Assembly: GCF_006345805.1 (NCBI RefSeq)
Contig: NW_021832385.1
Coordinates: forward strand, 1-64,000
DNA: 64,000 nt
Direction of reading: 5' to 3'
Source: Octopus sinensis
Lineage: Eukaryota
Both the position numbers and the translations under genes were made by a program. Below are positions 13,591 through 47,962 of this stretch, piece after piece. Within the stretch, counting starts at the first letter, position 1. Each line of letters starts with the position of its first letter. The notes beneath the pieces are model-generated. The model was not told where the DNA came from. It did not search any database and was given only the letters and a program-made list of their open reading frames with translations.

Positions 13591-13694
13591 CTACGCTGAA
13601 GAGAAAAGAAGTTTCGGTAAGATAGAATTATTTAATATTTAATATTTAATTCTTATGCTTCCTTAAAACTTGATTTCGAAACGTACGTCCGTGT
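13591..13694 (+). ncRNA. Type I hammerhead ribozyme, family B
   Basis: Same motif; the 3' strand of stem I reads cgtg. Confidence 0.82.
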
Positions 13695-16707: not shown

Positions 16708-17605
16708 ATGTCCAGAGCATGGAGACCTGACGAGCTGGATTTATTCGTACAAGCATGGGAGTGCGTCGGCGGAGATAGCCCAGCGAGGTGATTGCGGCTG
16801 CGCTGAAGAGCAGAGGCTACAAGAGGACAGCGGCTCAGATGGAGCGAAAGAGACGGGAATTCGTGCGCTCATATGCGCTTGTACGGTCGCACATTGGCGC
16901 ACTTGATGCCATCTTTGAGAACGAGCGGGGCAAAGATGGCAAGAATGGAGACGATGAAAGAAGTCACCCCCACCTGGTGGACGCCCGGGAGGAGGTTTTG
17001 AATGAGAAACCTGCCCGGGAAGTGAACCAGGTGCAAGTTCTCCAACTGGCAGCAAGGCCATGGAGACGGAGAACCCGGAAAGAGGTAGAGAGAGGAAGAA
17101 GAACTAAAAGAAGGACTGGAAGAGCTAAAGGAAAGAAAAAGCTCAAGCGACCAAGGGTGAAACAACCAGGAATAGAAGTGGAACCGCAAAGGATGGAACC
17201 AAACAGCGCACACGGTGTGTATGTTCTACCTGAGAGTCCTGCTGTCATGGAAAGGAAGGTGCAGGCTGCCGCTTTGCACATCGGGGACCCTGCCACAGAG
17301 ACACGAGGCAGATGGACAAACCATCAACACAAAGAAAAGAGATGGACCGCGCACACACTGCCCAAAGCGGAGGTACGCAGATGTTGTGCGCGCCACAAAC
17401 CGCCAACATGATGTTGTCGAAGAGCAGCTGCTGAGCACAACATCTTTTTGTGCATGGCACAAAAGATATACAGCAGCTGACCTGGCTTCATCAACCCAAG
17501 CCCGCAGGTGGGACTACCCACTATATACCAGACCACCACAGCAAACAGACACAGGATGGACACCGCCGGCAACAACATCCACCTCACCTCGATGCTCCTA
17601 CTGTA
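16708..17605 (+). pseudogene. LINE ORF1: Myb/SANT-like N-terminus, charged linker, CCCH zinc finger (frameshifted)
   Basis: MSRAWRPDELDLFVQAWEC...VIAAALKSRGYKRTAAQMERKRREFVRSY. A zinc-finger remnant CMFYLR at ~17218 is homologous to CRFYLRGTCWHGEEGAGCRFAH of copy 2. Confidence 0.75.
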
Positions 17606-20523
17606 CATCAGAGGACGCAAACACTCAGTAACAGGACAAAGATCCCGTTCCTGAGAGACTTTGTTGCATGCCAATCAAGCCTTATGCATAGCACTTACAG
17701 AAACGCACCTGAAACCGGACATAGCAGATGCGGATTTACACATACCACAGTATGCTGTACTACGGACCGACAGGAAAGAAAGGAGTCATGGAGGTGTTGC
17801 TATGTACATCCGTGAGGACCTCACACCCCAGGTCCTCTTGTCATACTCAAACTCGGTGTGTGACACACTAATTGTACATATTAGGCAACTTGATGTAGTT
17901 GTGTGTGCTACATATCGCACTCCAGATGCCCCAAGCCATGTGGGCAAGTTTGAAGACTGCCTTATAAAAATAGAAGAATTCTCTAACCACATTAGAACAA
18001 CACTATAGGTGTGCTTCTTATGGGAGACTTCAATCTGCCCAATGTCAGATGGCCCGAGGGCCTTTCTCTCCAGGAATGACAAGATGTGAACGAGGACAGG
18101 CGAGGTCCCTCCTGAACCTCATCACACCCTTGTACATGGAGCAGGTAATACTCCAACCACCAGGGCAGGTAACACACTGGATCTCTGCTTCACAAATGAC
18201 ATGGATCTCATCCATAATGTGAAAGTGACACCGACACTACTCTCGGATCACAACATGATAGAGCTGACCATGTACGGGCCAAAAGAGAGCACGGACATGC
18301 AGCCTACAAGAAACCCTCAAATCTTTCCAGCTTGAACTACCATAAGGCAAACTGGAAACAAATTGAGAAAGAGATCCTCAAACAAAACTGGCCTAAATGT
18401 CTCTCCTCGCCAGACATCGACGTGAACTTCAACAATTCATGTCTGTAATGCAAGCCATATGCTACAAATGTGTCCCAGAGAGAAAGGCCACTGTACACAA
18501 GAACAAAATCCCCAGAGAGAGGAAAATTTTAATGAGACGGCGTACGAAATTTTCAAATCGCCTAAACAAACAAATTGAAAGCAGTGAAAAGTCCCGCCTA
18601 AAATAAAACTGTTGGAAACGAAAAATGTCTGCAACTCTCCCATGAAAAAGAAAGAGCAGACAAAGAAGCCTGGGCTATAGAAAACATAAAATCTAACCCC
18701 AGAGCTTTCTACAGGTATGCCAAAGAAACAGCTACAGTGCACTGTAGAATAGGGCCACTCCTCGAAAGGATGGCACACTTACAGGAAAACCAATGAGGGT
18801 AAGTGAAATACTGAATGAGCAATTCAAGAGTGTTTTCACTGCACCCCTTGGGCATCTCCAAATCACCAATCCAACTGACTTTTTTACCACTGCAGATATA
18901 AAATCAGAGGCGGCGACGATAGATTACATCGATATAAAGGAGACGATGTAACCAAGGCTATAGATGAAATGAAAACAGACTCAGCTACTGGCCCCGATGG
19001 ATTCCCGGCAATCCTCCTAAAAGCATGTAAGAGAGTCCTAGCAAGACCACTGCAGTTCCTCTTTCAGAGCTTCCTTGCAGCTGGCAAACTTCCAGGAAAC
19101 TGAAGGAAGGTAAAATATGCCCCATTCATAAAGGAGGTAGCAGAGCGGAAGCCAAGAACTATACCTATCTCTCTGACCTCACACATCAGCAAGGTCATGG
19201 AACGAATAGTCAGAAGGAAGCTGATCACCTCCTTGAAGAGAATGACTTGCTGCCCGACACCCAACATGGTTTCCGACCAGGGAGAAGCTGTTTACCTCAG
19301 CTCCTACAACACTATGACTGGGTGCTGAAACGGCTGCTCAACCACTCAAATGTGGAAGTGATATATCTCGACTTTGCAAAGGCCTTTGATAAAGTCGATC
19401 ATGGAATGATAATGTCACAAACTGCGTGATCTCAACATAGTTGGAAAACTGGGAGAATGGCTTCATGACTTTCTGAAGGATAGAAGTCAATGGGGCCACT
19501 TCCATTAACACGCAAATAGTGAGCGGTGTTCCGCAGGGCACTGTTTTGGGACCACTACTGTTCATAATGGCCCTCTCAGACATGCCCTCAGCCACGCGGA
19601 GAGCCACGATCACAAGTTATGCAGATAATACAAAAGTTTCACAGGCAATACAGAACCCTGAGGACACTAAGCACCTGCAATGTGAGCTGGACGAATAATA
19701 CAAGTGGGCTGAAAAGAATAGCATGCAGTTCAATGCTGAAAAGTTTCAAGCTTTATACTATCAGCATGCAAAACTGATGCAATACCCAATGAATACACTG
19801 GACCCGAGGTTGCAATCCCAGAGGCACAATCAGTGCGTGACCTGGGTATTCACATGAGTGATGACGCGACCTTTCATGTACATGTTGCTAACTGACAATG
19901 AAATGTAGACGCTGCCTGGATGGATTCTTAGAACCTTTAGAACAAGAGAACAAGAAACCATGATGGTCCTCTGGAAGACACTTGTCCTAAGCCACTTTGA
20001 CTATTGCTCTCAGATATGGTCACCATCCAGTGTCAAGTTGATCACAGAACTTGAGGCGATCCAACGAAGCTACACGAAGAAGATAGCCTCTATGCAGAAT
20101 GTAAGCTACTGGAAAAGACTCAAGAGATTAAAATTATATTCCCTGGAGCGTAGGCGGGAAAGATATGCCATAATATACATCTGGAAGATCCTGGAGGGAA
20201 GTGTCCTGAACTTTGGCATCGAGAGTTACGCAAATGCCAGAACTGGGCGCCACTGCGTGGTGCCTAGGACTCCAAACCTGCCATCAAGATGTAGGACAAG
20301 ATTCTGTGATAGCCTGGGCTTCCGAGGCCCACAGCTCTTCAATATCCTCCCGAAGAACCTGAGAGACCTGCATGGGGTGGATACAGATGTCTTTAAAATG
20401 AAGCTAGATCTCTTCCTGTCAGGTGTCCCAGATGAACCAACTTCACGGCAGGAGGGGCAGATGAGGGCAGCTACATCGAACTCTCTCATGCATCAAATAG
20501 CAGTTGCTAGAAAGCCCCCATGA
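17450..20523 (+). pseudogene. LINE ORF2 (APE endonuclease + reverse transcriptase), many frameshifts, YADD changed to YADN
   Basis: ORF fragments 17661, 18397, 19247 and 19960; tatgcagataat at 19618. Confidence 0.9.
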
Positions 20524-20617
20524 AGTGAAACCAAGTAGCAACACCAAATGGCGGTGCCCCAGCATGGCCACAGCTCATAAGCTGAAACTAGAATCAATCA
20601 ATCAATCAATCAATCAT

Positions 20618-24336: not shown

Positions 24337-24689
24337 ATCGTTGCATAGACGTTTTTATGTGTATGTATAGATATATATATATATTGGTGTGTGAGTTAGT
24401 GTATGTATTTAGATATGGTTATATATATTTAGTTATATGTGTATGAGCATGTGTGTATATATAGTTTATTTATTTATTTTTTTATTTAAAAAATTTTTTT
24501 TTTGTACATCTTTAAATATGAGAACTTTAATAATAAGTTTCTTTATATTCAATTGTTTATAGGGTTTATTTTAGATTATATATTGATTATATATAGATTA
24601 TATATAGATTATATATATTTATATTTTTCATTGATAATTTTATTATTTTAAACTTATATTTTAATATATTGATATTTTAGATCGAAAAT

Positions 24690-24732
24690 CCACCTGACGA
24701 ATGTCATTGAAGACATGAAACGATTGTAGTGG
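24690..24732 (+). ncRNA. Type I hammerhead ribozyme, family F
   Basis: ccac CTGACGA atgtc-attgaa-gacat GAAA CGATTG TA gtgg; stems I and II are perfectly paired. Confidence 0.9.
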
Positions 24733-24966
24733 CGGTTTATTTCTTTATATTAAAAATTTTTATGTATTGATTAAGTCTTTCCTTGTTTGTTTTGCAAAGT
24801 AGTGGTTTTGTCTCGAATTAATATTATATAATATTTTACTATAAAATTGGATTTAATCCTAAATATGATTTTTCCCTGTAAATTTGGATTTATTCCCTAA
24901 TATTTATTATTATTTAATATATTGATAATTTTGTATATTGAGTGTAATACCTCAATTTCGTAAATT

Positions 24967-26532
24967 ATGGAATTTACAGGTAAGATAGAACCGCTATTTT
25001 GGGATTCATCTTTGAAAGATATTCCTATACCTTCTAGAAAGGAATTTATTTTGAAATTTATTAATAATGTTAAAGGTTTTATTTCTAGAATTAAATGGAA
25101 AGCTTATTACTATGATTTTTATTTATTTAATGATAATGATAGTAGGAATGATAATTTTACCTCTAAATTTAAATCTAGAAAGGAGCCTCCACTTAATAAA
25201 GATTTACAATTACTAGAAGATAATATATGGAAGGTAGTAAAAAATATTGAATTCTATAAATACCCAAATAGAAATAATGAATATTTGAGAAACTTAGCAA
25301 TTAAAATTAAAGATATGAGAAATATGGATGGTATTATAGTACAATCTGATAAAACTAGGAATCTATATAAATTAGATGTTAAATTATATGATAAACTCTT
25401 AGGGAAAGAAATAATTAAAAAATATAAAATTGTTCCAGATTATATACTTTATAATATTAATAAGGCCTCTAAATTAGTAATGTTAAAATATGAATTGGAT
25501 AATAAAACTGAACCTTATGTACCTTTGCACCTTAGAATTACTCTTAAAGACCATAAAGATAATTTTTATTCAGACCCTAAAGTTAGATTAATTTGCCCAT
25601 GTAAATCTGACCTAGGTAAATTAAGTAAATTTATTTTAGATAAATATATCAATAAATTAAATAAACTTAATTATTTAAAATTATGGTTTAGTAATAACAA
25701 TACATTGAAATGGTTTAATAATATTAAAGATAAAAATCGTTATAAATTTATTCAAATAGATATAGATAATTATTATTCTTCTATTAATGAAATTGTGTTT
25801 AATAAAGCACTTATTTTCGCAATGAATAAAGTGGGAATGTCAATTGAAGAAGTTAATGTAATTAAAATGGCTAGGAAATCGCTCATTAAATATAAAAATA
25901 AATTATGGTCTAGGAATGATACTAGAGATTGTTTTGATATACCGATGGGAGCACCAGATTCTGCACAAGCTACTGATTTAGTAGGTATTTTTCTTTTATC
26001 TGAACTCCAATTAGAAAATCTTAAGATAGAGGGTGGCTTATATAGAGATGATCTTCTACTAATTACAAAGAATTGTACTAATAGGAATCTAGAAGTATAT
26101 AAGAAGAAACTATATAGTTTCTTTAAAAGATATGGTTTAAGTATTACTATATATAAGGAGAATTATAATGTTAATTATTTAGATGTTAATTTTAATCTAA
26201 TTACAGGTAAAACACAACCATATCATAAAATTAATGTGAACCTTAGATATATAAATGTTAATAGTAATCACCCACATTCTATAAAAAAATCGTTGATTAA
26301 TAATATAAGTAAACGTATTTCATTACTCTCTTATGATATAGAGATTTTTAATAAACATGCTACTTATTATAATGAGGCCCTTAGAGGGGCAGGTTATAAT
26401 AGGAATATTAAATTTTATAATATTAAGGATACAGATTTAACTAATAATTTTCAAGATAATTATAATAATATATATAATCGTTGCATAGACGTTTTTATGT
26501 GTATGTATAGAGATATATATATTGGTGTGTGA
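24967..26532 (+). CDS. Penelope-like reverse transcriptase, 521 aa, uninterrupted but lacking the GIY-YIG domain
   Basis: SLKDIPIPS, SDKTRNLY, TLKDHKDNF, QIDIDNYYS, FDIPMGAPDSAQATDLVG, GGLYRDD, NYLDVNF, SNHPHSIKK. Confidence 0.92.
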   Translation: MEFTGKIEPLFWDSSLKDIPIPSRKEFILKFINNVKGFISRIKWKAYYYDFYLFNDNDSRNDNFTSKFKSRKEPPLNKDLQLLEDNIWKVVKNIEFYKYPNRNNEYLRNLAIKIKDMRNMDGIIVQSDKTRNLYKLDVKLYDKLLGKEIIKKYKIVPDYILYNINKASKLVMLKYELDNKTEPYVPLHLRITLKDHKDNFYSDPKVRLICPCKSDLGKLSKFILDKYINKLNKLNYLKLWFSNNNTLKWFNNIKDKNRYKFIQIDIDNYYSSINEIVFNKALIFAMNKVGMSIEEVNVIKMARKSLIKYKNKLWSRNDTRDCFDIPMGAPDSAQATDLVGIFLLSELQLENLKIEGGLYRDDLLLITKNCTNRNLEVYKKKLYSFFKRYGLSITIYKENYNVNYLDVNFNLITGKTQPYHKINVNLRYINVNSNHPHSIKKSLINNISKRISLLSYDIEIFNKHATYYNEALRGAGYNRNIKFYNIKDTDLTNNFQDNYNNIYNRCIDVFMCMYRDIYIGV

Positions 26533-26825
26533 GTTAGTGTATGTATTTAGATATGGTTATATATATTTAGTTATATGTGTATGAGCATGTGTGTATATAT
26601 AGTTTATTTTTATTTTTATTTTTTTTTTTTGTACATCTTTAAATATGAGAATTTTAATAATAGGTTTCTTTATATTCAATTGTTTATAGGGTTTATTTTA
26701 GATTATATATTGATTATATATAGATTATATATAGATTATATATAGATTATATATATTTATATTTTTCATTGATAATTTTATATTTTAACTTATATTTTAA
26801 TATATTGATATTTTAGATCGAAAAT

Positions 26826-26869
26826 CCACCTGACGAATGTCATTGAAGACATGAAACGATTGTGTGTGG
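26826..26869 (+). ncRNA. Hammerhead, family F, 3' copy with altered cleavage site
   Basis: Core and stem II match 24690, but ...cgattgtgtgtgg replaces ...cgattgtagtgg. Confidence 0.7.
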
Positions 26870-26975
26870 CGGTTTATTTCTTTATATTAAAAATTTTTAT
26901 GTATTGATTAAGTCTTTCCTTTCCTGTTTGTTTTGCAAAGTAGTGGTTTTGTCTCGAATTAATATTATATATATG

Positions 26976-27530: not shown

Positions 27531-30500
27531 TCCATCCAGGCGTTGTTTGTACGAGCCTGGAAATGCGCCGACGGAGATAGCCCTAACAATGTGATTACGG
27601 CTGCGCTGAAGAGCGGCAGCTACAAAAGGACAATAGCTCAGATAGAGCGAAAGAAACAGGAATTCATACGCTCCTATGCGCTTGTACGGTCGCACATTGG
27701 CACACTTGATGCCATTTTTGAGAACGAGCAGGGCAAAGATGGCAAGGATGGAGACGATGAAAGAAGTCACCCCCACCTGGTGGACACCCGGGAAGGGGTT
27801 TTGAACGAGAAACCTGCCCGGGAAGTGAACCCGAGTACAAGTGCTCCTACCGACAGCAAGGGCCATGGAGATGGAGAACCCAGGGAAGAAGTAGAGGGAG
27901 GAAGAACAAAAAGAAGGACTGAAAGAGATAAAGGAAAAGCTCAAGCAGGACCAAAGGGTGAAACAGCCAGGAATAGAAGCGGAACCGCAAGGGATGGAAA
28001 CAAACAGCGCACACGGGTGTGTAGGTTCTACCTGAGAGGTACCTGCTGGCATGGAGAGGAAGGTGCAGGCTGCCGCTTTGCACATCGGGGACTCTGCCGC
28101 AGAGACACGAAACGAAAACAGATAAACAAACCATCAACACAAGGAAAAGGGATGGACCACGCACCACCTGCCCCAAAACGGAGGTACGCAGATGTGGTGC
28201 GTGCCACGAACCGCCAACATGATGTTGTTGAAAGGGCAGCTGCTGAGCAAGAATCCTTTTTGTGCATGGCACAAAAGATTGTACAGCAGCTGACCTGGCT
28301 TCATCAAACCCAAGCTCGCACAATATACAAGACCACCACAGCAAACAGACCCAAGATGGACACCGCCGGCAACAACATCCACCTCACCTCGATGCTCCTA
28401 CTGAACATCAGAGGACTGCAAACACTCAGTAACAGGACAAAAAACCGGTTCTTGAGAGACTTTGTCGCATGCAATCAAGCCTTATGCATAGCACTCACGG
28501 AAACGCACCTGAAACCGGACATAGCAGATGCGGAATTACACATCCACAGTATGTTGTACTACGGACCGACAGAAAAGAAAGGAGTCATGGAGGAGTTGCT
28601 ATGTACATCCGTGAGGACCTCACACCCCAGGTCCTTTTGTCATACTCAAACTCGGTGTGTGACACACTAATTGTACACATAAGGCAACTTGATGTAGTTG
28701 TGTGTGCTACATATCGCACTCCAGATGCCCCAAGCCATGTGGGCAAGTTTGAAGACTGCCTTATAAAAATAGAAGTTCTAATCACATTAGAACAACACAT
28801 AAGTGTACTTCTCATGGGAGACTTCAATCAACACAATGTCAGATGGCCTGAGGGCCTTTCTCTCCCAGGAATGACAAGATGTGAACGAGGACAGGCGAGG
28901 TCCCTCCTGAACCTCATCAACACCCTTTACATGGAGCAAGTAATACTCCAACCAACAAGGGCAGGTAACACACTGGATCTCTGCTTCACAAATAATATGG
29001 ATCTCATCCATAATGTGAAAGTGACACCGACACTACTCTCGGATCACAACATGGTAGAGCTGACCATGTACGGGCCAAAGAGAGCATGCATGCAGCCTAC
29101 AAGAAACCCTCAGAATCTTTCCAGCTTGAACTACCATGAGGCACCTGGAAACAAATTGAGAAAGAGATCCTCAAACAAAACTGGCCTAAATGTCTCTCCT
29201 CGCCAGACATCGACGTGAAACTTCAACAATTCATGTCTGTAACGCAAGCCATATGCTACAAATGTGTCCCAGAGAGAAAGGCCACTGTACACAAGAACAA
29301 AATCCCCAGAGAGAGGAAAATTTTAATGAGACGGCGTACAAAAATTTCAAATCACCTAAACAAACAGATTGAAAGCAGTGAAAAGTCCCGCCTGAAAATT
29401 AAACTGTTGGAAATTGAAAAATGTCTGCAACTCTCCCATGAAAAGGAAAGAGCAGACAAAGAAGCCTGGGCTATAGAAAAATCTAACCCCAGAGCTTTCT
29501 ACAAGTATGCCAAAGAAACAGCTACAGTGCACTGTAAGATAGGGCCACTCCTTGAAAAGGATGGCACACTTACAGGAAAACCAATGAGGGTAAGTGAAAT
29601 ACTGAATGAGCAATTCAAGAGTGTTTTCACTCCACACCTCGGGCATTTCCAAATCACAAATCCAACTGACTTTTTTACCACTGCAGATATAAAATCAGAG
29701 GCGGCGACGATAAATTACATCGATATAAAGGAAGACGATGTAATAAAGGCTATAGATGAAATGAAAACAGACTCAGCTACTGGCCCCGATGGATTCCCGG
29801 CAATCCTCCTAAAAGTATGTAAGAGAGTCCTAGCAAGACCACTGCAGTTCCTCTTTCAGAGCTTCCTTGCAGCTGGCAAACTTCCAAGAAAACTGAAGGA
29901 AGGTAAAATATGACCCATTCATAAAGGAGGCAGCAGAGCGGAGGCCAAGAACTACAGACCTATCTCTCTGACCGCACACATCAGCAAGGTCATGGAACGA
30001 ATAGTCAGAAGGAAACTGATCCCCTTCCTTGAAGAAAATGGCTTGCTGCCCGACACCCAACATGGTTTCCGACCGGGGAGAAGCTGTTTAACTCAGCTCC
30101 TACAACACTATGACTGGGTGCTGAAACAACTGCTCAACCACTCAAATGTGGAAGTGATATATCTCGACTTTGAAAAGGCCTTTGATAAAGTCGATCATGG
30201 AATGATATGTCACAAACTGCGTGATCTTGGCATAGTTGGAAAATTGGGAGAATGGCTTCATGACTTTCTGAAGAATAGAAGTCAGGTGGTAGCAGCCAAT
30301 GGGGCCACTTCCATTAACACGCAAATAGTGAGCGGTGTTCCGCAGGGCACTGTTTTGGGACCACTACAGTTCATAATGGCCCTCTCAGACATGCCCTCAG
30401 CCACGCAGAGAGCCACGATCACAAGTTATGCAGATGATACAAAAGTTTCACAGGCAATACAGAACCCTGAGGACACTAAGCACCTGCAATGTGAGCTGGA

Positions 30501-31433
30501 CGAAATATACAAGTGGGCTGAAAAGAATAGCATGCAGTTCAATGCTGAAAAGTTTCAAGCTTTATACTATCAGCATGCAAAACTAAATGCAATACCCAAT
30601 GAATACACTGGTCCCAGAGGGATTGCAATCCCAGAGGCACAATCAGTGCGTGACCTGGGTATTCACATGAGTGACGACGCAACCTTTCACGTACATGTTG
30701 CTAAACTGGCAATGAAATGTAGACGGCTGGCTGGATGGATTCTTAGAAACTTTAGAACAAGAGAACAAGAAACCATGATGTTCCTCCTGAAGACACTTGT
30801 CCTAAGCCACTTTGACTATTGCTCTCAGCTATGATCACCATCCAGTGTCAAGTTCATCACAGAACTTGAGGCGATCCAACGAAGCTACACGAAGAAGATA
30901 GCCTCTGTGCAGCATATGAGCTACTGGGAAAGACTCAAGAGATTAAAGCTCTATTCCCTGGAGCGTAGGCGAGAAAGATATGCCATAATATATATCTGGA
31001 AGATCCTGAAAGGACTTGTCCCAGACTTTGGCATCGAGAGTCACACAAATGCCAGAACAGGACGTCACTGCGTAGAACCAAGGACTCCAAATTTGCCATC
31101 AAGACGTAGGACAAGATATTGTGATAGCCTGGGCTTCAGAGGCCCACAGCTCTTCAATATCCTCCCGAAGAACCTGAGGGACCTGCATGGTGTAGATGCG
31201 GATGTCTTTAAAGTAGGACTAGATCTCTTCCTGTCAGGTGTCCCGGATGAACCAACTTCACGGCAGGAGGTGCAGATGAGGGCAGCTGCATCGAACTCTC
31301 TCATGCATCAGATGGCGTTTGCTAAAAAGCATCCGTGAGGTAAAATCGTGTAGCAAACCAAATGGCGGTGCCCCAGCATGGCCACAGCTCATTAGCTGAA
31401 ACTGGAAAATCAAAATCAATCAAAATCAAAATC
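27531..31433 (+). mobile_element. CR1/L2-group LINE copy 2 (ORF1 nearly complete, APE, RT with YADD, (AAATC)n tail)
   Basis: ORFs 27543, 28469, 29215, 29992 and 30907. In-frame TGA at 29911 and 30832. Tail at 31407-31433. Confidence 0.93.
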
Positions 31434-31461
31434 ATATGATATATATATATATATATATATG

Positions 31462-31495
<34 letters not shown>

Positions 31496-31521
31496 ATGAT
31501 ATATATATATATATATATATG

Positions 31522-31556
<35 letters not shown>

Positions 31557-31564
31557 ATATATAT

Positions 31565-31613
<49 letters not shown>

Positions 31614-31624
31614 ATATTATATAT

Positions 31625-31718
<94 letters not shown>

Positions 31719-31883
31719 AGATGGCTAGCAGCAGGCTGTTTCGCCTCATACCGAAGGAATTAGAAACGGCAGTCAAAGACCGTTTTTTCCATTTTCTATA
31801 AGTGAGATTCCAAAAACGAAGCCCTTACGGCTCACATACACAAAACCGGAGTGGCAAATATACGAAAGCAATCACTTACCGTT

Positions 31884-31950
31884 ATAGCGAACACGTGTTT
31901 CTGGATCACAAACATAGAAAAAGTAGTTTGAATTCCGTCATCAGCGCTAT
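31884..31950 (-). ncRNA. Type I hammerhead ribozyme, family C
   Basis: Minus strand reads atagcg CTGATGA cgga..caaac...gtttg..tcca GAAA CACGTG TT cgctat; stem I is 6 bp. Confidence 0.85.
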
Positions 31951-32433
31951 ATTCGATAGCTTTACCAAATGCCACCAGCCCTCACTTCTGACCCAGCGAC
32001 ATCAGATAGTGGGGGGAAGTGCGCAGATGTTAAAACTAAGTAACGACTGGGAACGTAAATTTTCCCTCCAAAATCCTGCCATGCGCGCCTTCTGGGTAAT
32101 CGTAATGGAATGAGGATCCCACATGGTAATGCAATAAAATGGTAAATAATTTTCCTGTGGTTTTTCATGTAACCAACAATTATTTACCGGTAAATTTCGG
32201 TATGTAAATACGACAAATTAATTGTCAGGACCTTTGTAAGGTTCAGTAAATAGTAAAGAAAATAAGATGGCTAGCAGCAGGCTATTTCGCCTCATACCGA
32301 AGGAATTAGAAATGGCAGTCAAAGACCGTTTTTTTCCATTTTCTATAAGTGGAGATTCCAAAAACGAAGGCCCTTACGGCTCACATACACAAAACCGGAG
32401 TGGCAAATATACGAAAGCAATCACTTACCGTTA

Positions 32434-32500
32434 ATAGCGAACACGTGTTTCTGGATCACAAACATAGAAAAAGTAGTTTGAATTCCGTCATCAGCGCTAT
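32434..32500 (-). ncRNA. Type I hammerhead ribozyme, family C
   Basis: Identical to 31884-31950. Confidence 0.85.
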
Positions 32501-32983
32501 ATTCGATAGCTTTACCAAATGCCACCAGCCCTCACTTCTGACCCAGCGACATCAGATAGTGGGGGGAAGTGCGCAGATGTTAAAACTAAGTAACGACTGG
32601 GAACGTAAATTTTCCCTCCAAAATCCTGCCATGCGCGCCTTCTGGGTAATCGTAATGGAATGAGGAATCCACATGGTAATGCAATAAACATGGTAAATAA
32701 TTTTCCTGTGGTTTTTCATGTAACCAACAATTATTTACCGATAAATTTCGGTATGTAAATACGACAAATTAATTGTCAGGACCTTTGTAAGGTTCAGTAT
32801 ATAGTAAAGAAAATAAGATGGCTAGCAGCAGGCTATTTCGCCTCATACCGAAGGAATTAGAAATGGCAGTCAAAGACCGTTTTTTCCATTTTCTATAAGT
32901 GGAGATTCCAAAAACGAAGACCCTTACGGCTCACATACACAAAACCGGAGTGGCAAATATACGAAAGCAATCACTTACCGTTA

Positions 32984-33049
32984 ATAGCGAACATTATTTC
33001 TGGATCACTAACATAGAAAAAGTAGTTTGAATTCCGTCATCAGCGCTAT
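32984..33049 (-). ncRNA. Hammerhead, family C, stem III palindrome destroyed
   Basis: Plus strand has gaacattatttc in place of gaacacgtgtttc. Confidence 0.55.
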
Positions 33050-33697
33050 ATTCGATAGCTTTACCAAATGCCACCAGCCCTCACTTCTGACCCAGCGACA
33101 TCAGATAGTGGGGGGAAGTGCGCAGATGTTAAAACTAAGTAACGACTGGGAACGTAAATTTTCCCTCCAAAATCCTGCCATGCGCGCCTTCTGGGTAATC
33201 GTAATGGAATGAGGAATCCACATGGTAATGCAATAAAAATGGTAAATAATTTTCCTGTGGTTTTTCATGTAACCAACAATTATTTACCGGTAAATTTCGG
33301 TATGTAAATACGACAAATTAATTGTCAGGACCTTTGTAAGGTTCAGTAAATAGTAAAGAAAATAAGATGGCTAGCAGCAGGCTATTTCGCCTCATACCGA
33401 AGGAATTAGAAATGGCAGTCAATGACCGTTTTTTCCATTTTCTATAAGTGGAGATTCCAAAAACGAAGGCCCTTACGGCTCACATACACAAAACCGGAGT
33501 GGCAAATATACGAAAGCAATCACTTACCGTTAATAGCGAACACGTGTTATATACGTATATACATATATATAATATATATATATATTATATATATATACAT
33601 ATATATACGTATATACATATATATATATATATTATGATATATATGATATATATATATATATATTATATAATATATATATATATATATTATATATATA

Positions 33698-33742
<45 letters not shown>

Positions 33743-33760
33743 ATATACATATGATATATA

Positions 33761-34797
33761 TTTCCGTCACCGTGTTGTATACTTTCGAGGTTTTCTTCCA
33801 AGGAATCTAATGCGATTGGCTTAGATTTCCCTTGGCGGGCTGCCCAGATTGGAGCAATCTCAAGATTAATCAGCCGAAATTGCGAAGATGATCTGGTTCT
33901 TGACTGATGACTGAGAGCTTCGATAGTCCCGTCTGTGTGTTTTTTGCCGTCTTCAAATTGTTTCACGTTCTTGTCCCAGTTTGTGTTTTTTTAACGTTTA
34001 CCTATATACATGGCGGCTACGTACCCTACCCTTTAACCCTATACTGTAAGTATATTACTCTCTAACATTGGTACGACTCGACTACTCTGTCTCTTTTTCC
34101 CCCCTCTCCTACTTTTCTCTGCCTTCACCCTTTTCACTCCCCTTGTTCCGTCTCTTTCCCTCTTTTTCTTCTCCTCCCTTGTTCCCCTTCTTTCTTTCTC
34201 TCTTCCTCCGTCCCTCCTCTCCCACATTTCTCTGCCTCTCAGACCTTATACCCCACTTGACCTGTCCCTTTCCCTCTCCTGCTTCTCTCTTCATCTGTCC
34301 CTTCCTCCTTTTTGTGCTCACGTGACCAGCTAGCTACTACTGCCTTTCGCATCAAGTAGTTGGCGTGACCACACGTATGTGTTCGTGCTCCGTTTGCCTT
34401 CAGGCACTTATTCCACAGCCAGCCTATACCCTCCTCGTCCTGTCGAAAGACGCTTGTCCTGACGTCCTGGTTTTGTTATGATTGTTTTTACGTTATTTTG
34501 TATTTTTATCCGTGCTATCTTTATTGTTTTTACGTATTTTTGAATTTTTTTCGAGTAACATCGTCCGTTTTCCCGTCACCGTGTTGTATACTTTCGAGGT
34601 TTTCTTCCAAGGAATCTAATGCGATTGGCTTATATTTCCCTTGGCGGGCTGCCCAGATTGGGGCAATCTCAAGATTAATCAGCCGAAATTGCGAAGATGA
34701 TCTGGTTCTTGACTGATGACTGAGTGTTTTTTTGCCGTCTTCAAATTGTTTCACGTTCTTGTCCCAGTTTGTGTTTTTTTTAACGTTTACCTATATA
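33761..34797. mobile_element. ORF-less element with ~240 bp direct terminal repeats and a CT-rich core
   Basis: ccgtcaccgtgttgtatactttcgagg...aacgtttacctatata occurs at 33761-34008 and 34569-34797. (TA)n flanks. Confidence 0.65.
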
Positions 34798-35779: not shown

Positions 35780-35854
<75 letters not shown>

Positions 35855-35900
35855 ATATATATACTATATATGATATATATATATATATATATTTATATAT

Positions 35901-36263
35901 TGTGAAATAGAAAGATGAATAATCTTGTTGCAGATTAATCAAAAGTTTAACCGATACCTTGGTAGCAAAAATCACAGCAGAAGACAGCACGGTTGGAGGT
36001 ACAACCATATGGTGTTGCAACCGTGCGTTGGTGCGGATAATTGAATTTTAATATTATTATTGAATTGAAGAAATTGAGTTGACGAAGATTGAACAGAAAT
36101 CGTTTTATTTCATTCTACACGTGTTTCGAAAGGCACAATTTACCAAATCCGATTGAATAATGAGACCATATTGTGTCTTTCTCTTCAGGAAGAAATAGGA
36201 AATCCGTTGGAAAAAACAAAAACAGAACAGAGCGGAGCAAAAACCAAATCGAACTAGCCTAGT

Positions 36264-39849: not shown

Positions 39850-40700
39850 ATTCCAAGACTGAACACTATCCCCCCCCCAGTTGTAATTGTAGGATTAGAT
39901 CAAATTGTCCGGTATCTGGTCGTTGTTCGGTCCAAAATGTAATTTATAAATGCACGATAACTTCTAACAATAGCTTTCTTTATTTCGGATGTTCAGTAGA
40001 TTTTAAAAAACGTCTCAACAATCATTTTTCCTCTTTGAGACTAAAACATAAGGCAGGTCGCACTACACTATCTAGCAAAATTTGGGAACTAAAAACAAAT
40101 AATATATGATTCAACCTAAAATGGGATATAGTTAGAAGGGCGAAACCTTATAGAAATAGTAGGGAAGGTTGTCAACTTTGTTCTATGGAAACTTATGAAA
40201 TTTTAAAGCATCGAAGTAATAAAATCTGTTGAATAATCGTCTGGAGTTGGGAGCATCTTGCATACATTCCACAACTCGAACGTTTAAATACTTTAAATAA
40301 AAATTTCAACTTTTATTATAATAATATTAAGAAATATACTATACTAGCCTTCAACTTAACTTTCATAGATGACTAGAATAACTTCACTGTAATCTTGAAA
40401 TTGGAACTCTTCCTAAATCTAATCTAGTTTAAAATTTAAAGCTGTAGTTTTGGTCAGTTAGCGACTGAACTTCACAACCTCATATGTTCTTAAAATTTAA
40501 ATCTACATCTTTATCTGTATATCTACCTTCTCTAAAATGTTACTACTTGATTTGAAAGCTTTTATATTATTGGAAAACCTATATAATTGGCTGAAGAGCA
40601 TTCAGCATCTTAAATCTGCTGTAATTCTTACAACTTTTAATAAAATGTTGTAGTACGAAACAATTGTACCAAATTACCGGAGTCATTCTTGTTGCTATTT
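39850..40700 (+). mobile_element. 5'-truncated Penelope-like element: GIY-YIG domain + 3' UTR
   Basis: From ~39880 the DNA reads CNCRIRSNCPVSGRCSVQNVIYKCTI...SYFGCS..FKKRLNNH...LSSKIWELK...W.I...KPY...CQLC..E. Confidence 0.85.
40587..40672 (+). ncRNA. Type I hammerhead ribozyme, family G (branched 59-nt stem II)
   Basis: ttgg CTGAAGA ...cagca/tgctg...tacaac/gttgta... GAAA CAATTG TA ccaa. Confidence 0.78.
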
Positions 40701-40928
40701 TTGATTATATATACGTATATCTATATATACATATATATGTATAGATATATACATATATATATGTATATATACATATATATATATGTAAATATATATACAT
40801 ATTTATATATATACATATATATATGTATATGTATACATATATTTATATATATATATATGTGTGTATATGTACACATATATTTATATATATACATAAACAA
40901 GAAAAAAGCAACAAGAATGGATTTGTTG

Positions 40929-41017
40929 TTCAGTACAATTGTTTCATACGAAGAACAGTTTTATTAAAAGCTGCAAATATTGCAGCAAATACAAGTGTCC
41001 CGTATTCATCAGCCAAA
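40929..41017 (-). ncRNA. Type I hammerhead ribozyme, diverged relative of family G
   Basis: Minus strand reads tttgg CTGATGA atacg...gctgca/tgcagc...cgtat GAAA CAATTG TA ctgaa. Confidence 0.78.
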
Positions 41018-42965
41018 ATACATATGAGTTTTCCAAACATCCTAGTGGGTGAGGCTACACTCATGAAGTTATCGAAGAGAGTTCTATAAAAAGCAAATTT
41101 AGATTGTAAGCAGACTTCAAAAGTTCTCTAATGATGCACAGATTTATAAAAGGTTTTTAAAAAGTTTGTTAGTTTCACAGAAAAGGTAAATCCATCCATA
41201 ATAATGTAGGTGTAATTTCCGGAGATATGAGGAGATATTTCATACTCAGAGACGATGAATTTATCCATAACAAAGTAGGTATAATTTCCTGATATATGAG
41301 AAGATGCTGATCACATTGTGAAATGAACAGAAATGTGATCAGCATTGAAACTTTTGTATCATCTGCATAACTTGTGATCGTGGCTCTCTGCATGGCTGAG
41401 GGCATGTCTGAGAGGGCCATTACGAACAGCAGTGGTCCCAGAACAGTGCCTTGCGGAACACCGCTCACTATTTGCATGTCATTGGAGGTGGCCCCATTGG
41501 CTACTACCACCTGACTTCTATCCTTCAGAAAGTCATGAAGCCATTCTCCCAATTTTCCAACTATGCCAAGATCACGCTTTTTTTTGACATATCATTCCAT
41601 GATCGACTTTATCAAAGGCCTTTGCAAAGGCGAGATATATCACTTCCAAATTTAAGTGGTTGAGCAGCTGTTTCAGCACCCAGTCATAGCGTTGTAAGAG
41701 CTGTGTGAAGCAGCTTCTTCCTGATCGGAAACCATGTTGGGTGTCGGGCAGCAAGTCATTTTCTTCAAGGAAGGCGATTAGTTTTCTTCTGACTATTTGT
41801 TCCATGACCTTGCTGATGTGTGAGGTTAGAGAGATAGGTCTGTAGTTCTTGGCCTCCGCTCTGCTATCTCCATTATGAATAGGGCATATTTTACCCTCCT
41901 TCAGTTTTTTTGAAAATTTACCAGTTGCAACGAAGCTCTGAAAGAGGGGCTGCAGTGGTCTGGCTAGGACTCGCTTACATACTTTTAGAAGGATTGCTGG
42001 GAATCCATCGGGGCCAGTAGCTGAGTTTGGGTTCATTTCATCTATAGCCTTTATTACATCGTCTTCCTTTATATCGATGTAATCAATCATCATTGCCTCT
42101 ATTTTTATATCTGCAGTAAAGAAGTCAGTTGGATTACTGACTTGAAAATGCCCTAGGAGTGGAGTGAAAATACTTTTCAATTGCTCATTTATCCTCATCG
42201 GATTTCCTGTGAGTGTACCATCTTTTTCGAAGAGTGGCTCTATCCTGCAGTGCACTGAAGCTGTTTATTTGGCAAACTTGTAGAAAAATCTGGGGTTAGA
42301 TTTTATATTGTCTATAGCCCAGGCTTCTTTGTCTGCTCTTTCTTGTCCATGGGAGAGTTGCAGACTTTTTTCAATTTCCAGCAGTTGTATTTTCAGGCAG
42401 GACTTTTCACTGCTTTCAATGTGTTTGTTTAGGCGATTTGAAACTTTTGTATCTGGGGATTTTGTTCTTGTGTACAATGGCCTTTCTCTCTGGGACACAT
42501 TTGCAGCATATGGCTTGCATTACAGACATGAATTGTTAAAGTTTCATGTCAATGTCCGGTGAGGAGAAACATTTAGGCCAGTTTGTTTGAGGATCTCTTT
42601 CTCAATTTGTTTCCAGTTTGCCTTATGGAAGTTCAAGCTGGAAAGATTCTGAGAGTTTCTTGTAGGTTGCATGTCCATGCTTTCCTTTAGCCCGTACATG
42701 GTCAGCTCTACTATGTTGTAATCTGAGAGTAGTGTTGGTGTCACTTTCACATTATGGATGAGATCCATATTATTTGTGAAGCAGAGATCCAGTATGTTAC
42801 CTGCCCTCATTGGTTGGAGTACTATTTGCTCCATGTACAAAGTGTTGATGAGGTTCAGGAGGGACCTCACCTGTCCTTGTTTGCATCGTATCATTCCTGG
42901 GAGAGAAAGGCCTTCAGGCCATCTGACATTGGGCAGATTGGAGTCTTCCATAAGAAGTACACATA

Positions 42966-44261
42966 CGAGGGGCGTTCAATAAGTAATGCCTCTGACCCAC
43001 TTGCAGTTGTTTGATCTAGCATTGTTTGAATTACATGTGCAATTATTTATATCTCTATAGATTAAGTGGCAAATTACAGCTCTGAACTTTTTGTGGTTTC
43101 TGAAATACAGGTGTTTGAACTGAGTCAAGTGTGAAATGGAGCCTGTTGAGTGTCGAGCAGTTATCCGGTTTTTTGTATTTGAAAGGACGCTCACCACAGG
43201 AGACTTTTGATGAAATGAAAGTAACTTATGGTGATGATGCCCCATCATATGACCTTGTAAAACGCTGGCATCGTGAATTCAAACATGGTTGGAACTCTGC
43301 GGAAACAGCTCCCAGATCTGGTCGCCCCCCTCCTGCCATTGATGAGGCATCTGTCCATCAAGTTGAGGCTGCCATTTTGGAAGATCGACGCATAACTATT
43401 CGCCAAATAGCCCATGAGGTCAAGTTTAGTACCGGGTCTGTGGAAACTATCATTCATGACCATTTGCATATGCAAAAGGTGTCTGCCAGATGGATTCCCA
43501 GGTTGCTCACACCTTTCCAGAAGCAAGAACGCGTCGAGTGCTCGAGGATGAATTTGGAGATGTGCCAAGAAGATGAGTCAAAGTTTTTCAAAAGACTGAT
43601 TACACAGGATGAAACCTGGATCCATCACTATGATCCAGACACCAAAGCCCAGTCAATGCAGTGGAAGCACCGTGACTCACCTCCTCCCAAGAAGGCAAGG
43701 GTGCAGCCCTCCGCTGGCAAGGTCATGCTCACAGTCTTCTGGGGCCAGGACGGAGTAGTGATGACAGATTTCCTGGCAAAGGGTACCACAATTACAGGAG
43801 CCTATTATGCTTCACTTTTGAGGAAATTAAGAGAAGCTATCAAAATGAAGAGGTGGGGAAAGATCAGCAAAGGCATCCTCCTCCTGCAGGACAACGCTCC
43901 GGTCTACAACTCGCGTGTTGCCAGATCAGAAGCACAGGCGTGCAGCTATTAACTCCTCCCCTATCCCCCTACTCTCCTGACCTTGCACCCTCCGATTTTC
44001 ACCTCTTCCCAGCCATGAAGTTGTTTTTGAAAGGAAAGCGTTTCCCAGATGATGCAGCCTTGATTTCTGAAGTCACGTCGTGGTTGGAGGACCAAGCTGG
44101 GGTCTTCTACAAAAACGGTCTCCAGAGTTGCATCAAACGATGGGAGAAATGTGTAACTCTGAGTGGTTCCTATGTAGAAAAAGACTAATAACTGTGCCAA
44201 GTTTCGTTGCTCTACTGCTATGGGAATTGGGTCAGGAGCATTACTTATTGAACGCCCCTCG
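42966..44261 (+). mobile_element. Mariner (DD34D) DNA transposon, ~1.3 kb, with terminal inverted repeats and TA target duplication
   Basis: TA|cgaggggcgttcaataagtaatgc ... gcattacttattgaacgcccctcg|TA. Removing it restores the LINE APE sequence. Confidence 0.96.
43136..44188 (+). pseudogene. Mariner transposase, disrupted near 43170 and 43950
   Basis: MEPVECRAVIRF..., SARWIPRLL, ITQDETW, LLQDNAP, PYSPDLAPSDFHLF. Confidence 0.93.
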
Positions 44262-45117
44262 TATGTATGGTTCTAATGTGACTAGAACTTCTATTTTTGC
44301 AAGGCAGTCTTCAAACTTGCCTACATGGCCTGGAGCATCTGGAGGGCTATATGTTGCACATATAACTACACCGAGTTGCCTTATATGTACAATTAGTGTG
44401 TCACATACTAAATTTGAGTGTGACAAAAGGATCTGAGGTGTGAGGTCTTCGTGGATGTACATAGCAACTCCACCATGACTTCTTTCTTTTCTGTCAGTCC
44501 TTAATACAACATACTGTGGTATGTGTATTTCTGCATTTGCTATATCTGGTTTCAGGTGTGCTATGCATAAGGCTTGATTGCATGCAACAAGGTCTCTTAA
44601 GAAAGGGATTTTTGTCCTGTTACTGAGTGTTAGCAGTCCTCTGATGTTCAGTAGAAGCATCGGGGTGATGTGTGTGTTGTTACCAGTGGTGTTAACCTTG
44701 GGTCTATTTGCTGTGGTGGTCTTGTGTATTGTGGATAGTCCCATCTGTGAGATTGATGGAGTCAGGTCAGCTGCTGTACAAACTTTTGTGCCATGCACAA
44801 AAAAAGATTGTTGTTCAGCAGCTGCCCTTTCAATAACATGTCGATGGGTTTGGTTTGTAGCATGCACTACATCTGCGTACCTCCGTTTTGGGGCAGGTGG
44901 TGCGTAGTCCTTTCCTTTTGGCAGGTGGCTTCTGCCCTGCTTCATGTTTATGTGGTGGGGTCGCGGGGTCTTTGGTGTGCTAAACAGAAGCCTGCACCTA
45001 CCTCACCATGCCAGCAGACAACTTTCAAGTAGAATTTACACATTCGTGTATGCTGTCTCTTTTTATCCTTTTTGTTATATGGATAGTCATGTTTACTTCT
45101 TTCCTTGGCTGTATATG

Positions 45118-45779: not shown

Positions 45780-47660
45780 AATGAGTGAAAAAACTACAGA
45801 AGGCTTGTGTTATAAGGTTAAAGAATATATTTAAGTCGTTATGTTAGAAAAGTGTTATAAAAAGTTTTGTATAGTAACATAGTTTTTGGAGAAATAACCG
45901 GTTTCGTATTTTCTTTTCAAAGTTCTTTATCTACACCGTGTCATGTCTTCGCTATGTAGTATGGGGTTCCATGCAGGGGAAGGTAATCAGGGATTTCTTC
46001 CGGTATAAGGGAGATAATCGCTTTATATTTTTTCAATGAGATGAGTTTCCTTGTTTAAAAATGTTAGAAATGGTTAAGTTTTGGCTTATATTTTTTAATG
46101 AAGAATGTTTCCTTGCTTAATCTAACTTGTGTTGGTGTTCCAATAGCACATTGATAGAATGGAAAGATTAAAAATCGTGGTAGTAGTTGCTTTGCGCATT
46201 TCTCAATGTTTACTAAAGTGTATCATTCTGTATTCTGGGAATGCAATCTATTGTCGATGCAGAGTGCATCTGCGTCTGAGCGATAATACCATGGACCCTA
46301 TGTAGTTTTGGTGGCAGCCCGAGTATCTTAGCTTTTCTGAAGCTCAAGTAAAATTAGATTTGATCTTGAATTTTTGTCCCTCTTTGAAGAGGAATTCTGA
46401 TCCTTCTAGAAGGTTTGGGCATCTTGCGCAGTTTGGTCTACCACATTTTTTGACTTTTGCATCCGTTATTTCAGAAAACAATTTTGCCTTTGTGAGGATC
46501 TTTTTTAGTGATTTAGGTTGTTTGTAGCTTTTAATGGTTTTATGTATGTTTAAAATTTCCTTTAATTTGGGGTCCTTATGAAGCATTGGTAAATTCTGGG
46601 TGATGATGGTGAAGGCTTCTTTGTTTCTGGGGTTGTATGTGGATATGTAAGGCAGTATTTTCGGGGAATGTGTGTTGCTGTGTTGCACTTTTTAAAGTTT
46701 CTATGTTGATCTCTGTTGCACGTCTGATTCCATCCTCTATGAGTTGAACTGGGTAGTGTCTGTCAATTAGGGTGTTTTTGAGTTCTTGTAGTCTAAAGTT
46801 TCTGGTATTTTGTTCTGACACTATTGTGCATATCCTTCTTGCAAGGTTGAAGGGGATGTTTGTTTTAATGTGTTTTGGGTGGCATGAATCAAAAAGTAGG
46901 TACTGTTTGGCATCTGTGGTTTTGTAAAATATGTCTGTTTCTATTTTTAGGTTAATTTTTTAAGAATGGAAGCTCCTTTTGGTAGTATTTCATTGTGAAC
47001 TGTATGTTTGGGTTGACGCCGTTCAATAGGTTTTTGAATTTTAAGAGTTTATCTGTGTTTTCATTCCAGAATATAAAACAGTCGTCTAGGAATCTTTTCC
47101 ATTTCTCTTTTATGTATTGGGAAAGGGGGTTTCCAAAGGTCGATAAAGATTCCTGGTATATTATTACCTTCAGGTAGCCCATTGTTAGGTTTGCAATGAC
47201 TGGTGCTGCCCTTGTACCCATAGCAATTCCGGATTTTTTACGGTAAAACGTATTGTCAAACATGAAGTGGTTATTTTGTAGGATGAATGCAACCAATTTA
47301 GTAATGAATTCTTTACTGATCCTTTTTGATATTTCTTCCAGAAATTGGTCCAGCCAGAACTGAATTGCCTCTAGTCCATAATTATGAGGTATACTGGTAT
47401 ATAAATTAACTACATCAAATGAAACCATGGTTGTTTCTTCCTTGACTTTTTTGGAAGGTGACATAACATATCCAAGTCATCTCTGATATGGCTATCGATG
47501 TGTTTAAGGAAGGGTTTCGGGAGGATGTCCATAAATAGACTTAGTCTGTGTGTTTCATAGGCTGGGCCAGCTACAATGGGTCGTAGTTTTAGGTTCCCCG
47601 GGTTTGGTGTATGTATGTACGTCTTTGGTGATTTTTTAATGGTTTCATTTATAATCTGGT
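45780..47660 (-). mobile_element. 5'-truncated Penelope/Poseidon- or Neptune-type PLE (RT + GIY-YIG), degenerate
   Basis: LRPIVAGP, SFDVVNLYTSIP, GIAMGTRAAPVIANLTMGY, RFLDDCF, CGRPNCARC. A different clade from the GLYRDD-type PLEs in this window. Confidence 0.9.
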
Positions 47661-47836
47661 TTATGTGTATGCATATTATTATGTATATACTTATATATAT
47701 GTATATTTAGGTGTATATACACTTATATGTATATGTAAATATGTACATATGCATATTTTTGTATATGTGTACCTTGTTTAATATTCATATTTGCATTTTA
47801 TATCTTCATTTTATATCTTTATAATTGTACTTTATA

Positions 47837-47962
47837 ATTTCTGACGAGGCCTTGAGATATATATATAAGTAACTCATTTTTAATTGCATATTACCTCAAT
47901 ACATCTGACTAATATGGGCATAATGAGATACTCTTATCTACAGGCTGAAATAGCTGTAAGAT
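47837..47962 (+). ncRNA. Type I hammerhead ribozyme, family H (99-nt stem II)
   Basis: attt CTGACGA ggcct...aggct GAAA TAGCTG TA agat. Confidence 0.78.

What the first reader, a model, noticed from the sequence alone, without database searches (positions are those of the whole stretch)
31716..33548. Array C: 3.3 x 550 nt ribozyme monomers whose 5' end sits at the ribozyme
Seen: near-identical head-to-tail monomers with no credible ORF. In ribozyme sense the array begins at the palindrome AACACGTGTT (33539-33548), 10 nt upstream of the predicted cleavage site, and ends just after the shared 3' motif. One monomer has lost its stem III palindrome. Inference: both ends are set by RNA signals, as expected for a cDNA of a processed or circular RNA. 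The 10-nt offset is unexplained and could be chance.
Basis: partly seen in the sequence, partly recalled or inferred. Interest (0 to 1): 0.72.

Follow-up and report, generated by a model that had tools for sequence, protein, structure and literature searches.

The report
Hammerhead retrozyme with Penelope-style insertion ends
This is one of a few hundred scattered copies of a protein-free repeat carrying a predicted self-cutting RNA motif; its start near the ribozyme is chance, but the fixed far ends and back-to-back copies across the genome suggest it is likely pasted in by the enzyme of a Penelope-type jumping gene.

Summary
The anatomy is real: 3.33 units of 549-550 nt, no ORF, three complete type I hammerheads on the minus strand, one with a lost stem III palindrome, inserted in (TA)n. 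The headline claim fails. In 64 other insertions (97 arms), 5' ends are scattered: 6 of 97 lie within 10 nt of the cleavage site (3.5 expected, p=0.14) and none at Array C's offset. Genome-wide, 2 of 231 units start there (1.3 expected). What is fixed is the 3' end: 84 of 96 arms stop at one of two sites, about 190 and 310 nt past the cleavage site. Array C itself stops 9-15 nt short of the first. 33 of 64 insertions are head-to-head, and all 22 with two canonical ends use one of each. This is the Penelope-like (PLE) footprint. Autonomous Hydra-type and Neptune-type PLEs in this genome show two fixed ends in (TA)n too, but no partner with shared sequence was found. Verdict: a non-LTR retrozyme, likely PLE-mobilised; cleavage and circularity untested. 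The scan already reported this pattern for other families in this genome.

The parts
31716..33548 (-). Array C: one non-inverted insertion of 3.33 head-to-tail units of a non-coding hammerhead element
33539..33548 (-). 5' truncation point: stem III palindrome AACACGTGTT, without the upstream catalytic core; a chance position
32990..33538 (-). unit 1 (549 nt, cleavage site to cleavage site)
32440..32989 (-). unit 2 (550 nt; reference for numbering, position 1 = 32989); folds at z -4.49 against shuffles
31890..32439 (-). unit 3 (550 nt)
31716..31889 (-). 3' partial unit ending at position 177, 9-15 nt short of fixed end E1; three single-base deletions here look like assembly errors
32984..33049 (-). 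type I hammerhead 1 (stem III altered to AATAATGTT, palindrome lost)
32434..32500 (-). type I hammerhead 2: stem I ATAGCG/CGCTAT, core CUGAUGA and GAAA, C.A mismatch at the base of an extended stem II, palindromic stem III
31884..31950 (-). type I hammerhead 3
32844..32869 (-). motif shared with arrays A and B (unit 2 copy); its last 9 nt pair with 32747-32755
32747..32755 (-). 3' strand of the conserved 9-bp long-range helix that encloses E1
32798..32804 (-). position of family fixed 3' end E1 (positions 186-192) in unit 2; 44 of 96 census arms end here
32676..32685 (-). position of family fixed 3' end E2 (positions 305-314) in unit 2; 40 of 96 census arms end here
31434..31715 (.). (TA)n target microsatellite, left flank
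33549..33761 (.). (TA)n target microsatellite, right flank

Best explanation
Array C is a 5'-truncated, non-inverted copy of a dispersed non-coding hammerhead element (a non-LTR retrozyme) that is likely inserted by the RT/GIY-YIG protein of a Penelope-like element acting in trans. Shown: (TA)n targets, two fixed 3' ends about 120 nt apart, scattered 5' ends, frequent head-to-head arms using one end each, and covarying hammerhead stems. Inferred: the borrowed protein nicks (TA)n, binds a structured site 120-310 nt downstream of the ribozyme, starts cDNA internally at E1 or E2, copies through one or more units and stops at a more or less random point, which is joined to the target or to the second cDNA, often through short microhomology. 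In Array C synthesis would have begun near E1 (left end), run 3.3 units and stopped by chance 10 nt past a cleavage position. The ribozyme would act earlier, cutting multimeric transcripts to unit length (probably as a dimer through the palindromic stem III) for possible circularisation; it does not mark insertion ends. Circular against linear multimeric template: about even odds.
For: 394 exact copies of a family 22-mer, 0 control. Census of 64 insertions: 3' ends E1 44, E2 40, other 12 of 96; 87 of 96 run into TA repeats; 33 of 64 head-to-head; 22 of 22 with two canonical ends are E1+E2 (p 2e-7; 22 of 23 without one manual correction). Inversion junctions overlap by 1-18 nt in 17 of 33. These match published PLE traits: 5' truncation, partial tandems, inverted copy, tail at one end (PMC8557442 passages; PMC3846280 passages), and two internal RT start sites that make the tail (PMC11167929). 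In this genome a Hydra-type PLE with RWK/DKT motifs and a 727-codon frame has two ends 71-74 nt apart, and a Neptune-type PLE has two ends about 40 nt apart, both in (TA)n. Hammerhead stems: 6 pairs with changes on both sides in 24 variants, 0 of 500 shuffles as high. Units of one insertion differ by a median 0.65% against 4.2-4.3% to other insertions. Families A, B and others share the motif (15,149 matches, 2 control) and the same two-end pattern in the loci read.
Against: No autonomous partner was found: a covariance model of the shared region gave no consistent hit next to ORFs in 48 Hydra-type and 35 Neptune-type loci, and blastn found no pLTR homology. Array C's own 3' end (177) is not E1 or E2, and it has no inverted arm. 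The 120-nt spacing is longer than the published 30-40 bp tail. The ribozyme has a C.A mismatch at the base of stem II in nearly all variants, and 29 of 76 units carry core changes (U4C 25, C3U 4), so cleavage may be weak. Rfam finds nothing at gathering threshold. Array C is mosaic at two sites (155 and 190) between a private and the family letter, which one pass round a single circle does not explain. Within-insertion identity beats the nearest other insertion in only 15 of 31 tandem and 14 of 23 inverted loci.
Confidence: 0.83

Rival explanations
1. One reading: both ends are set by RNA processing; the array is a cDNA whose 5' end marks the ribozyme cleavage site.
For: Array C and one census copy (L055, -6) start just upstream of the site; 5 further arms start at +2 to +9.
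Against: 6 of 97 within 10 nt against 3.5 uniform (p 0.14) and 3.4-4.0 smoothed (p 0.10-0.21); 6 against 5.3 within 15 nt; 0 of 97 at -12 to -8. 2 of 231 genome-wide, 1.3 expected. TA-joined starts just inside the site: 4 loci, all joined within the TATTA stretch, against 2 at a control position. A cleaved linear RNA lacks the upstream 10 nt.
Confidence: 0.04
2. Same PLE-type insertion, but the template is an uncut linear read-through transcript of a source array; the hammerhead is inherited and largely dispensable.
For: PAc hammerhead mutants insert normally in vitro (PMC11167929). Subfamilies with U4C or C3U cores have spread. Array C's mosaic sites fit a heterogeneous multimer.
Against: Stems I and II keep pairing through compensatory changes and most stem III variants stay self-complementary, which points to selection on the ribozyme fold. 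38 of 97 arms exceed one unit and units within an insertion are nearly identical, as a circle predicts.
Confidence: 0.35
3. A short piece was inserted once and the 3.3 units arose later by local tandem duplication or unequal crossover (satellite model, as discussed in 10.64898/2026.07.22.740005).
For: Units 1 and 3 share a private change at 190 that unit 2 lacks.
Against: Arm lengths form a smooth series from 46 to 2114 nt with fixed 3' ends; multi-unit arms occur on both sides of inversions (L113, L098, L058); copies are dispersed over many contigs.
Confidence: 0.1
4. SINE-like or transduced sequence mobilised by the adjacent LINE (27543-31433).
For: Adjacency; the LINE also ends at a (TA)n run.
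Against: Opposite orientation, 280 nt of TA between them, the 91% identical LINE copy at 16741-20616 has no such array, no tRNA head, no poly(A) or AAATC tail; paired outward-facing fixed ends are not a LINE footprint (own knowledge).
Confidence: 0.02

Closest known systems
Metazoan non-LTR retrozymes (PMC7229834: part 2 of 6 and passages; bioRxiv 10.64898/2026.07.22.740005: parts 1-3 of 5)
   Same: Tandem non-coding units each with a type I hammerhead, GC under 50%, strongly self-paired, PLEs proposed as mobiliser; axolotl HHR_Amex2 also has a mismatch at the base of stem II.
   Different: 550 nt is above the 170-400 nt of the first paper but inside the 51-972 bp of the second. The parts I read do not map insertion ends, inverted arms or (TA)n targeting. 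Cleavage and circles are shown there and untested here. No pLTR homologue was found here, unlike 24 of 57 Xenopus families with a TE match.
EN+ Penelope-like elements, Hydra and Neptune clades (PMC8557442: abstract, section 11, passages; PMC3846280: passages)
   Same: 5' truncation, partial tandems, inverted copy with a tail at one end only, hammerhead in the repeat, (TA)n targeting.
   Different: No ORF; tail about 120 nt rather than 30-40 bp; no sequence match to the autonomous families sampled.
PAc (Poseidon, Anolis) internal initiation in vitro (PMC11167929: parts 1-2 of 4)
   Same: Two internal RT start sites matching genomic ends, AT-rich cleavage on both strands, predicted dimer, ribozyme cut site not at insertion ends.
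   Different: Start sites lie in the ORF and close together; autonomous element; no rule of one end per arm is described in the parts read.
Non-autonomous Chlamys such as MRC1 (PMC8557442 passage)
   Same: Non-autonomous PLE partners forming multicopy head-to-tail insertions.
   Different: They generally share 3' sequence with an autonomous family, and most Chlamys lack canonical hammerheads.
pDo500 cricket satellite with hammerhead (PMC2837043; search listing only)
   Same: Hammerhead-bearing satellite repeat; a unit of about 500 bp is recalled, not read.
   Different: Described as satellite DNA; insertion anatomy not compared here.

Membership tests
non-LTR retrozyme | type I hammerhead in each tandem unit | tested here: met
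   3 complete units with intact core and stems; covariation in 24 variants; no Rfam hit at gathering
non-LTR retrozyme | no protein coding, GC under 50%, strongly self-paired unit | tested here: met
   longest ATG frame 59 codons, GC 40%; fold z -4.49
non-LTR retrozyme | dispersed, mobile multi-copy family | tested here: met
   394 exact 22-mer hits; the first 100 form 64 insertions
non-LTR retrozyme | self-cleavage of the RNA | not testable with these tools
   C.A mismatch at stem II base and core variants make activity uncertain
non-LTR retrozyme | abundant unit-length linear and circular RNA | not testable with these tools
   only assembled contigs of runs not on record as RNA were offered
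non-autonomous Penelope-like element | variable 5' truncation and partial tandems | tested here: met
non-autonomous Penelope-like element | inverted 5'-truncated copy with a tail at one end | tested here: met
   family: 33 of 64 inverted, 22 of 22 E1+E2; tail 120 nt, not 30-40; Array C itself is not inverted
non-autonomous Penelope-like element | microsatellite (TA)n target as in Hydra, Naiad, Neptune | tested here: met
   87 of 96 3' flanks
non-autonomous Penelope-like element | terminal sequence shared with an autonomous PLE | tested here: inconclusive
   none in 48 Hydra-type and 35 Neptune-type loci; these sample only some families, Naiad and Poseidon were not searched
canonical type I hammerhead | paired base of stem II directly joining the core | tested here: not met
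   1 of 24 variants pairs at that position; G-C follows one base further in, with an extra base on both sides
tRNA-derived SINE | tRNA-like head and LINE-like or poly(A) tail | tested here: not met
   ARAGORN 0 genes in 31000-34500; ends run straight into TA

The most novel reading that the evidence does not exclude
A dimeric Penelope-type protein loads on one circular retrozyme RNA at a conserved structured site and primes two cDNAs, one from each nicked strand of a (TA)n target, at two start sites 120 nt apart; each runs round the circle and they are joined head to head. The genomic arms would be a direct record of two-ended rolling-circle reverse transcription, and the shared motif (15,000 genomic matches) would be a portable in-trans signal for a still unidentified PLE.
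Probability: 0.35. Interest if true: 0.7.

Novelty: new member of a known kind. Interest (0 to 1): 0.4.

Why it matters
How animal retrozymes are copied into genomes is open: the papers read propose PLEs from co-occurrence and pLTR similarity only. Insertion footprints (two fixed 3' ends, one per arm) are independent, mechanism-level evidence, and they name the RNA positions at which a purified PLE protein should start cDNA, so the idea can be tested in the published in vitro system. The specific claim of this finding, a 5' end set by the ribozyme, is wrong, and the scan had already noted the footprint in other families of this genome.

Tried and rejected
Rfam at gathering threshold: no hit in the window. 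Pfam: no informative hit for the four Hydra-type frames; RVT_1 for the Neptune-type and LINE frames. Partner search: tblastn of PLE proteins against family loci gave only unrelated neighbours; array A lies beside a Hydra-type ORF in the window, but an A-like piece lies near that ORF family in only 1 of 28 other loci, so adjacency is incidental; a weak motif-like hit in L172 was AT-rich noise; covariance-model hits near Neptune-type copies occurred in 2 of 35 loci. RNA: no RNA holder listed on record; contigs of guessed-RNA runs carry diverged family pieces at low depth, which shows neither strand, level nor circularity; no contig bridged Array C's left junction, so the short 3' end could not be checked. 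RNA-editing signature: private changes shared by all units of an insertion were A>G 5 against T>C 9, so no excess. A cluster of 7 5' ends at 176-181 was seen after the fact and not tested. The long-range 9-bp helix has essentially one covarying pair (4 sequences), 10 of 500 shuffles as high: suggestive only. Sequence look-up in earlier findings: nothing. Literature: 'retrozyme'+'octopus' (term taken from earlier notes) gave 2 papers, neither on such a family by title and abstract; searches listed no paper on retrozyme insertion ends; supplements of PMC8557442 and of the bioRxiv preprint were not seen and may list related families.

Full report
Observation. The stretch 31716-33548 lies between two (TA)n runs. 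On the minus strand it holds 10 nt, three units of 549, 550 and 550 nt counted from cleavage site to cleavage site, and a 174-nt partial. Units are about 98% identical, 40% GC, with no ATG frame above 59 codons. Three complete type I hammerheads are present: stem I ATAGCG/CGCTAT, core CUGAUGA and GAAA, an extended stem II, a short stem III and a GUU triplet. Rfam does not find them at gathering threshold. The first unit's stem III is AATAATGTT, not seen in 76 other units. The array starts at AACACGTGTT, 9-10 nt upstream of a cleavage position, but without the catalytic core. Positions below count from the first base after cleavage in unit 2 (32989).

Is the ribozyme real? Among 24 variants chosen from the 41 distinct ones found plus two window copies, 6 of 18 named pairs show changes on both sides, 0 of 500 shuffles reach this, and slid controls pair 25-43% of cells against 93.5%; related sequences can inflate such scores. 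Stem III varies (CACCGTG 23, CACGGTG 22, CATATG 13, CACGTG 11, CATG 5, two single others, of 76) yet is nearly always self-complementary, as in hammerheads proposed to work as dimers (PMC4209133 passages). Array C's perfect 10-nt palindrome is a minority form. Against strong activity: the base of stem II is a C.A or A.A mismatch in 23 of 24 variants, and 29 of 76 units have U4C or C3U. A U.U mismatch at that place occurs in a weakly cleaving axolotl ribozyme (PMC7229834 passage). Cleavage is untested.

The decisive test. A 22-mer of the family has 394 exact genomic matches and 0 control matches. The first 100 listed, in position order over C1-C4 and part of C5, form 64 insertions; all were fetched and mapped. 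They give 97 arms after dropping one 70%-identical tail-in neighbour (L108). One arm ran off its locus (L113, 3' end unknown) and three ends were corrected by eye (L051, L086, L097). 5' ends are spread over the unit: the best 20-nt window holds 13 of 97; 6 of 97 lie within 10 nt of the cleavage site (3.5 expected, p 0.14; smoothed nulls p 0.10-0.21), 6 within 15 nt (5.3 expected), none at -12 to -8. Genome-wide, of 231 exact copies of the 16 nt after the cut, 2, including Array C, have a TA flank within 14 nt upstream; 1.3 are expected from the census rate. TA-joined starts just inside the site occur at 4 loci, all within TATTA, against 2 at a control position. The 5' start of Array C is therefore ordinary truncation. 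The census is conditional on holding the 22-mer at 125-146, which favours starts upstream of it but not the cleavage site in particular.

What is fixed. 3' ends fall at E1 (186-193) in 44 and at E2 (305-314) in 40 of 96 arms, 12 elsewhere; 87 of 96 run into TA repeats. 33 of 64 insertions are two arms head to head with 3' ends outward. All 22 with two canonical ends pair E1 with E2 (p 2e-7; 22 of 23 if L086 is left uncorrected). Junctions overlap by 1-18 nt in 17 of 33. Array C is single-armed and ends at 177, 9-15 nt short of E1; three single-base deletions in that last partial are contradicted by short-read contigs of the family, so local assembly error is possible, but no contig bridges the junction.

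The signal region. The motif before E1 is shared with arrays A and B and further families: 15,149 matches against 2 controls. Loci read show the same two-end pattern. A 9-bp helix encloses E1 in all 13 aligned representatives, with one pair covarying in 4 of them; the region folds at z -3.1 and the unit at z -4.5. Its role as the protein-binding site is inferred.

Mechanism. Truncation, partial tandems, an inverted copy and a tail at one end are the described PLE footprint (PMC8557442 passages and section 11; PMC3846280 passages). In vitro, a PLE protein cuts AT-rich DNA on both strands and starts cDNA at two internal sites that match genomic ends, and the hammerhead is not needed for insertion (PMC11167929 parts 1-2 of 4). 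In this genome a Hydra-type element (RWK, DKT, 727-codon frame) has two ends 71-74 nt apart in (TA)n, mixed in the three clear inverted copies L175, L180 and L193, unclear in L190; a Neptune-type element has two ends about 40 nt apart. I infer in-trans mobilisation by a PLE (0.83). The partner is unknown: blastn, tblastn and a covariance model found no consistent link in 48 Hydra-type and 35 Neptune-type loci; other clades were not searched.

Circle or linear multimer. Units of one insertion differ by a median 0.65% (31 tandem, 23 inverted loci) against 4.2-4.3% to other insertions, but beat the nearest other insertion in only 15 of 31 and 14 of 23. 38 of 97 arms exceed one unit. This fits one template per insertion and does not prove a circle. 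Array C's full units differ by 0.8-1.1%, against 1.8-2.0% to the nearest other locus; they share a private change at 365 but are mosaic at 155 and 190, which suggests a mixed template, conversion or polishing artefact. Public runs offered only contigs not on record as RNA, so expression is open.

Comparison and novelty. The element meets the sequence-level definition of a non-LTR retrozyme (PMC7229834 part 2 of 6 and passages; 10.64898/2026.07.22.740005 parts 1-3 of 5); cleavage and circular RNA could not be tested. Searches listed no paper mapping retrozyme insertion ends; supplements were not seen. Earlier notes of this scan describe the same two-ended footprint for other families in this genome. 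I had reached the E1/E2 reading before opening them (note); they prompted the within-array and editing tests and two papers. The organism label in those notes was not checked here. Verdict: new member of a known kind, headline claim refuted, interest 0.40.

Noticed in passing
window 1479-4147 and 11505-14471: Arrays A and B are further hammerhead families sharing the motif; both are head-to-head. B ends at its E2 (11505) and E1 (14471). A ends at E1 on both sides, inside a larger inverted duplication (142-2518 against 5481-3109) that may be an assembly foldback.
   Followed up: partly
window 6725-6942: Short head-to-head insertion of an A-like subfamily with one arm at E1 and the other at E2.
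   Followed up: partly
window 4333-6400 (+), 393-1289 (-), 24337-26971, 47769-52751: Frameshifted or truncated Hydra-type PLE copies (RW[KR] and DKT motifs); the last two are flanked by direct pLTRs, and the one at 24337 has a compact hammerhead at 24694 and 26830.
   Followed up: partly
window 7225-7712, 9859-10063 and 40570-41036: pLTR fragments of two Hydra-type families (matching L154/L161 and L184/L185), with hammerheads, as inverted insertions in (TA)n.
   Followed up: partly
window 35803-36195 and 52746-53298: Another hammerhead family with extended stem II and a CACGTG stem III; no autonomous partner looked for.
   Followed up: no
window 45780-47600 (-): Broken copy of a very abundant young Neptune-type PLE (9,102 first-look candidates); no hammerhead was looked for in its 3' repeat.
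   Followed up: partly
window 16741-20616 and 27543-31433: Two 91% identical LINE copies (RVT_1) ending in AAATC repeats followed by (TA)n; more relatives at 41346-45071, 53930-56338, 62310-64000.
   Followed up: no
window 56572-58618: 2-kb palindrome with an internal 443-bp repeat and a hammerhead-like core at 58274.
   Followed up: no
census loci L054, L025, L075, L082, L090, L093, L098: Seven 5' ends fall at positions 176-181, just before E1 and at the position where Array C's 3' end lies; could be a stall or microhomology hot spot.
   Followed up: no
L143 (G000:C1:2552923 and 2553847): Two same-strand copies of the shared motif 924 nt apart, longer than the 540-600-nt units of the other families.
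   Followed up: no
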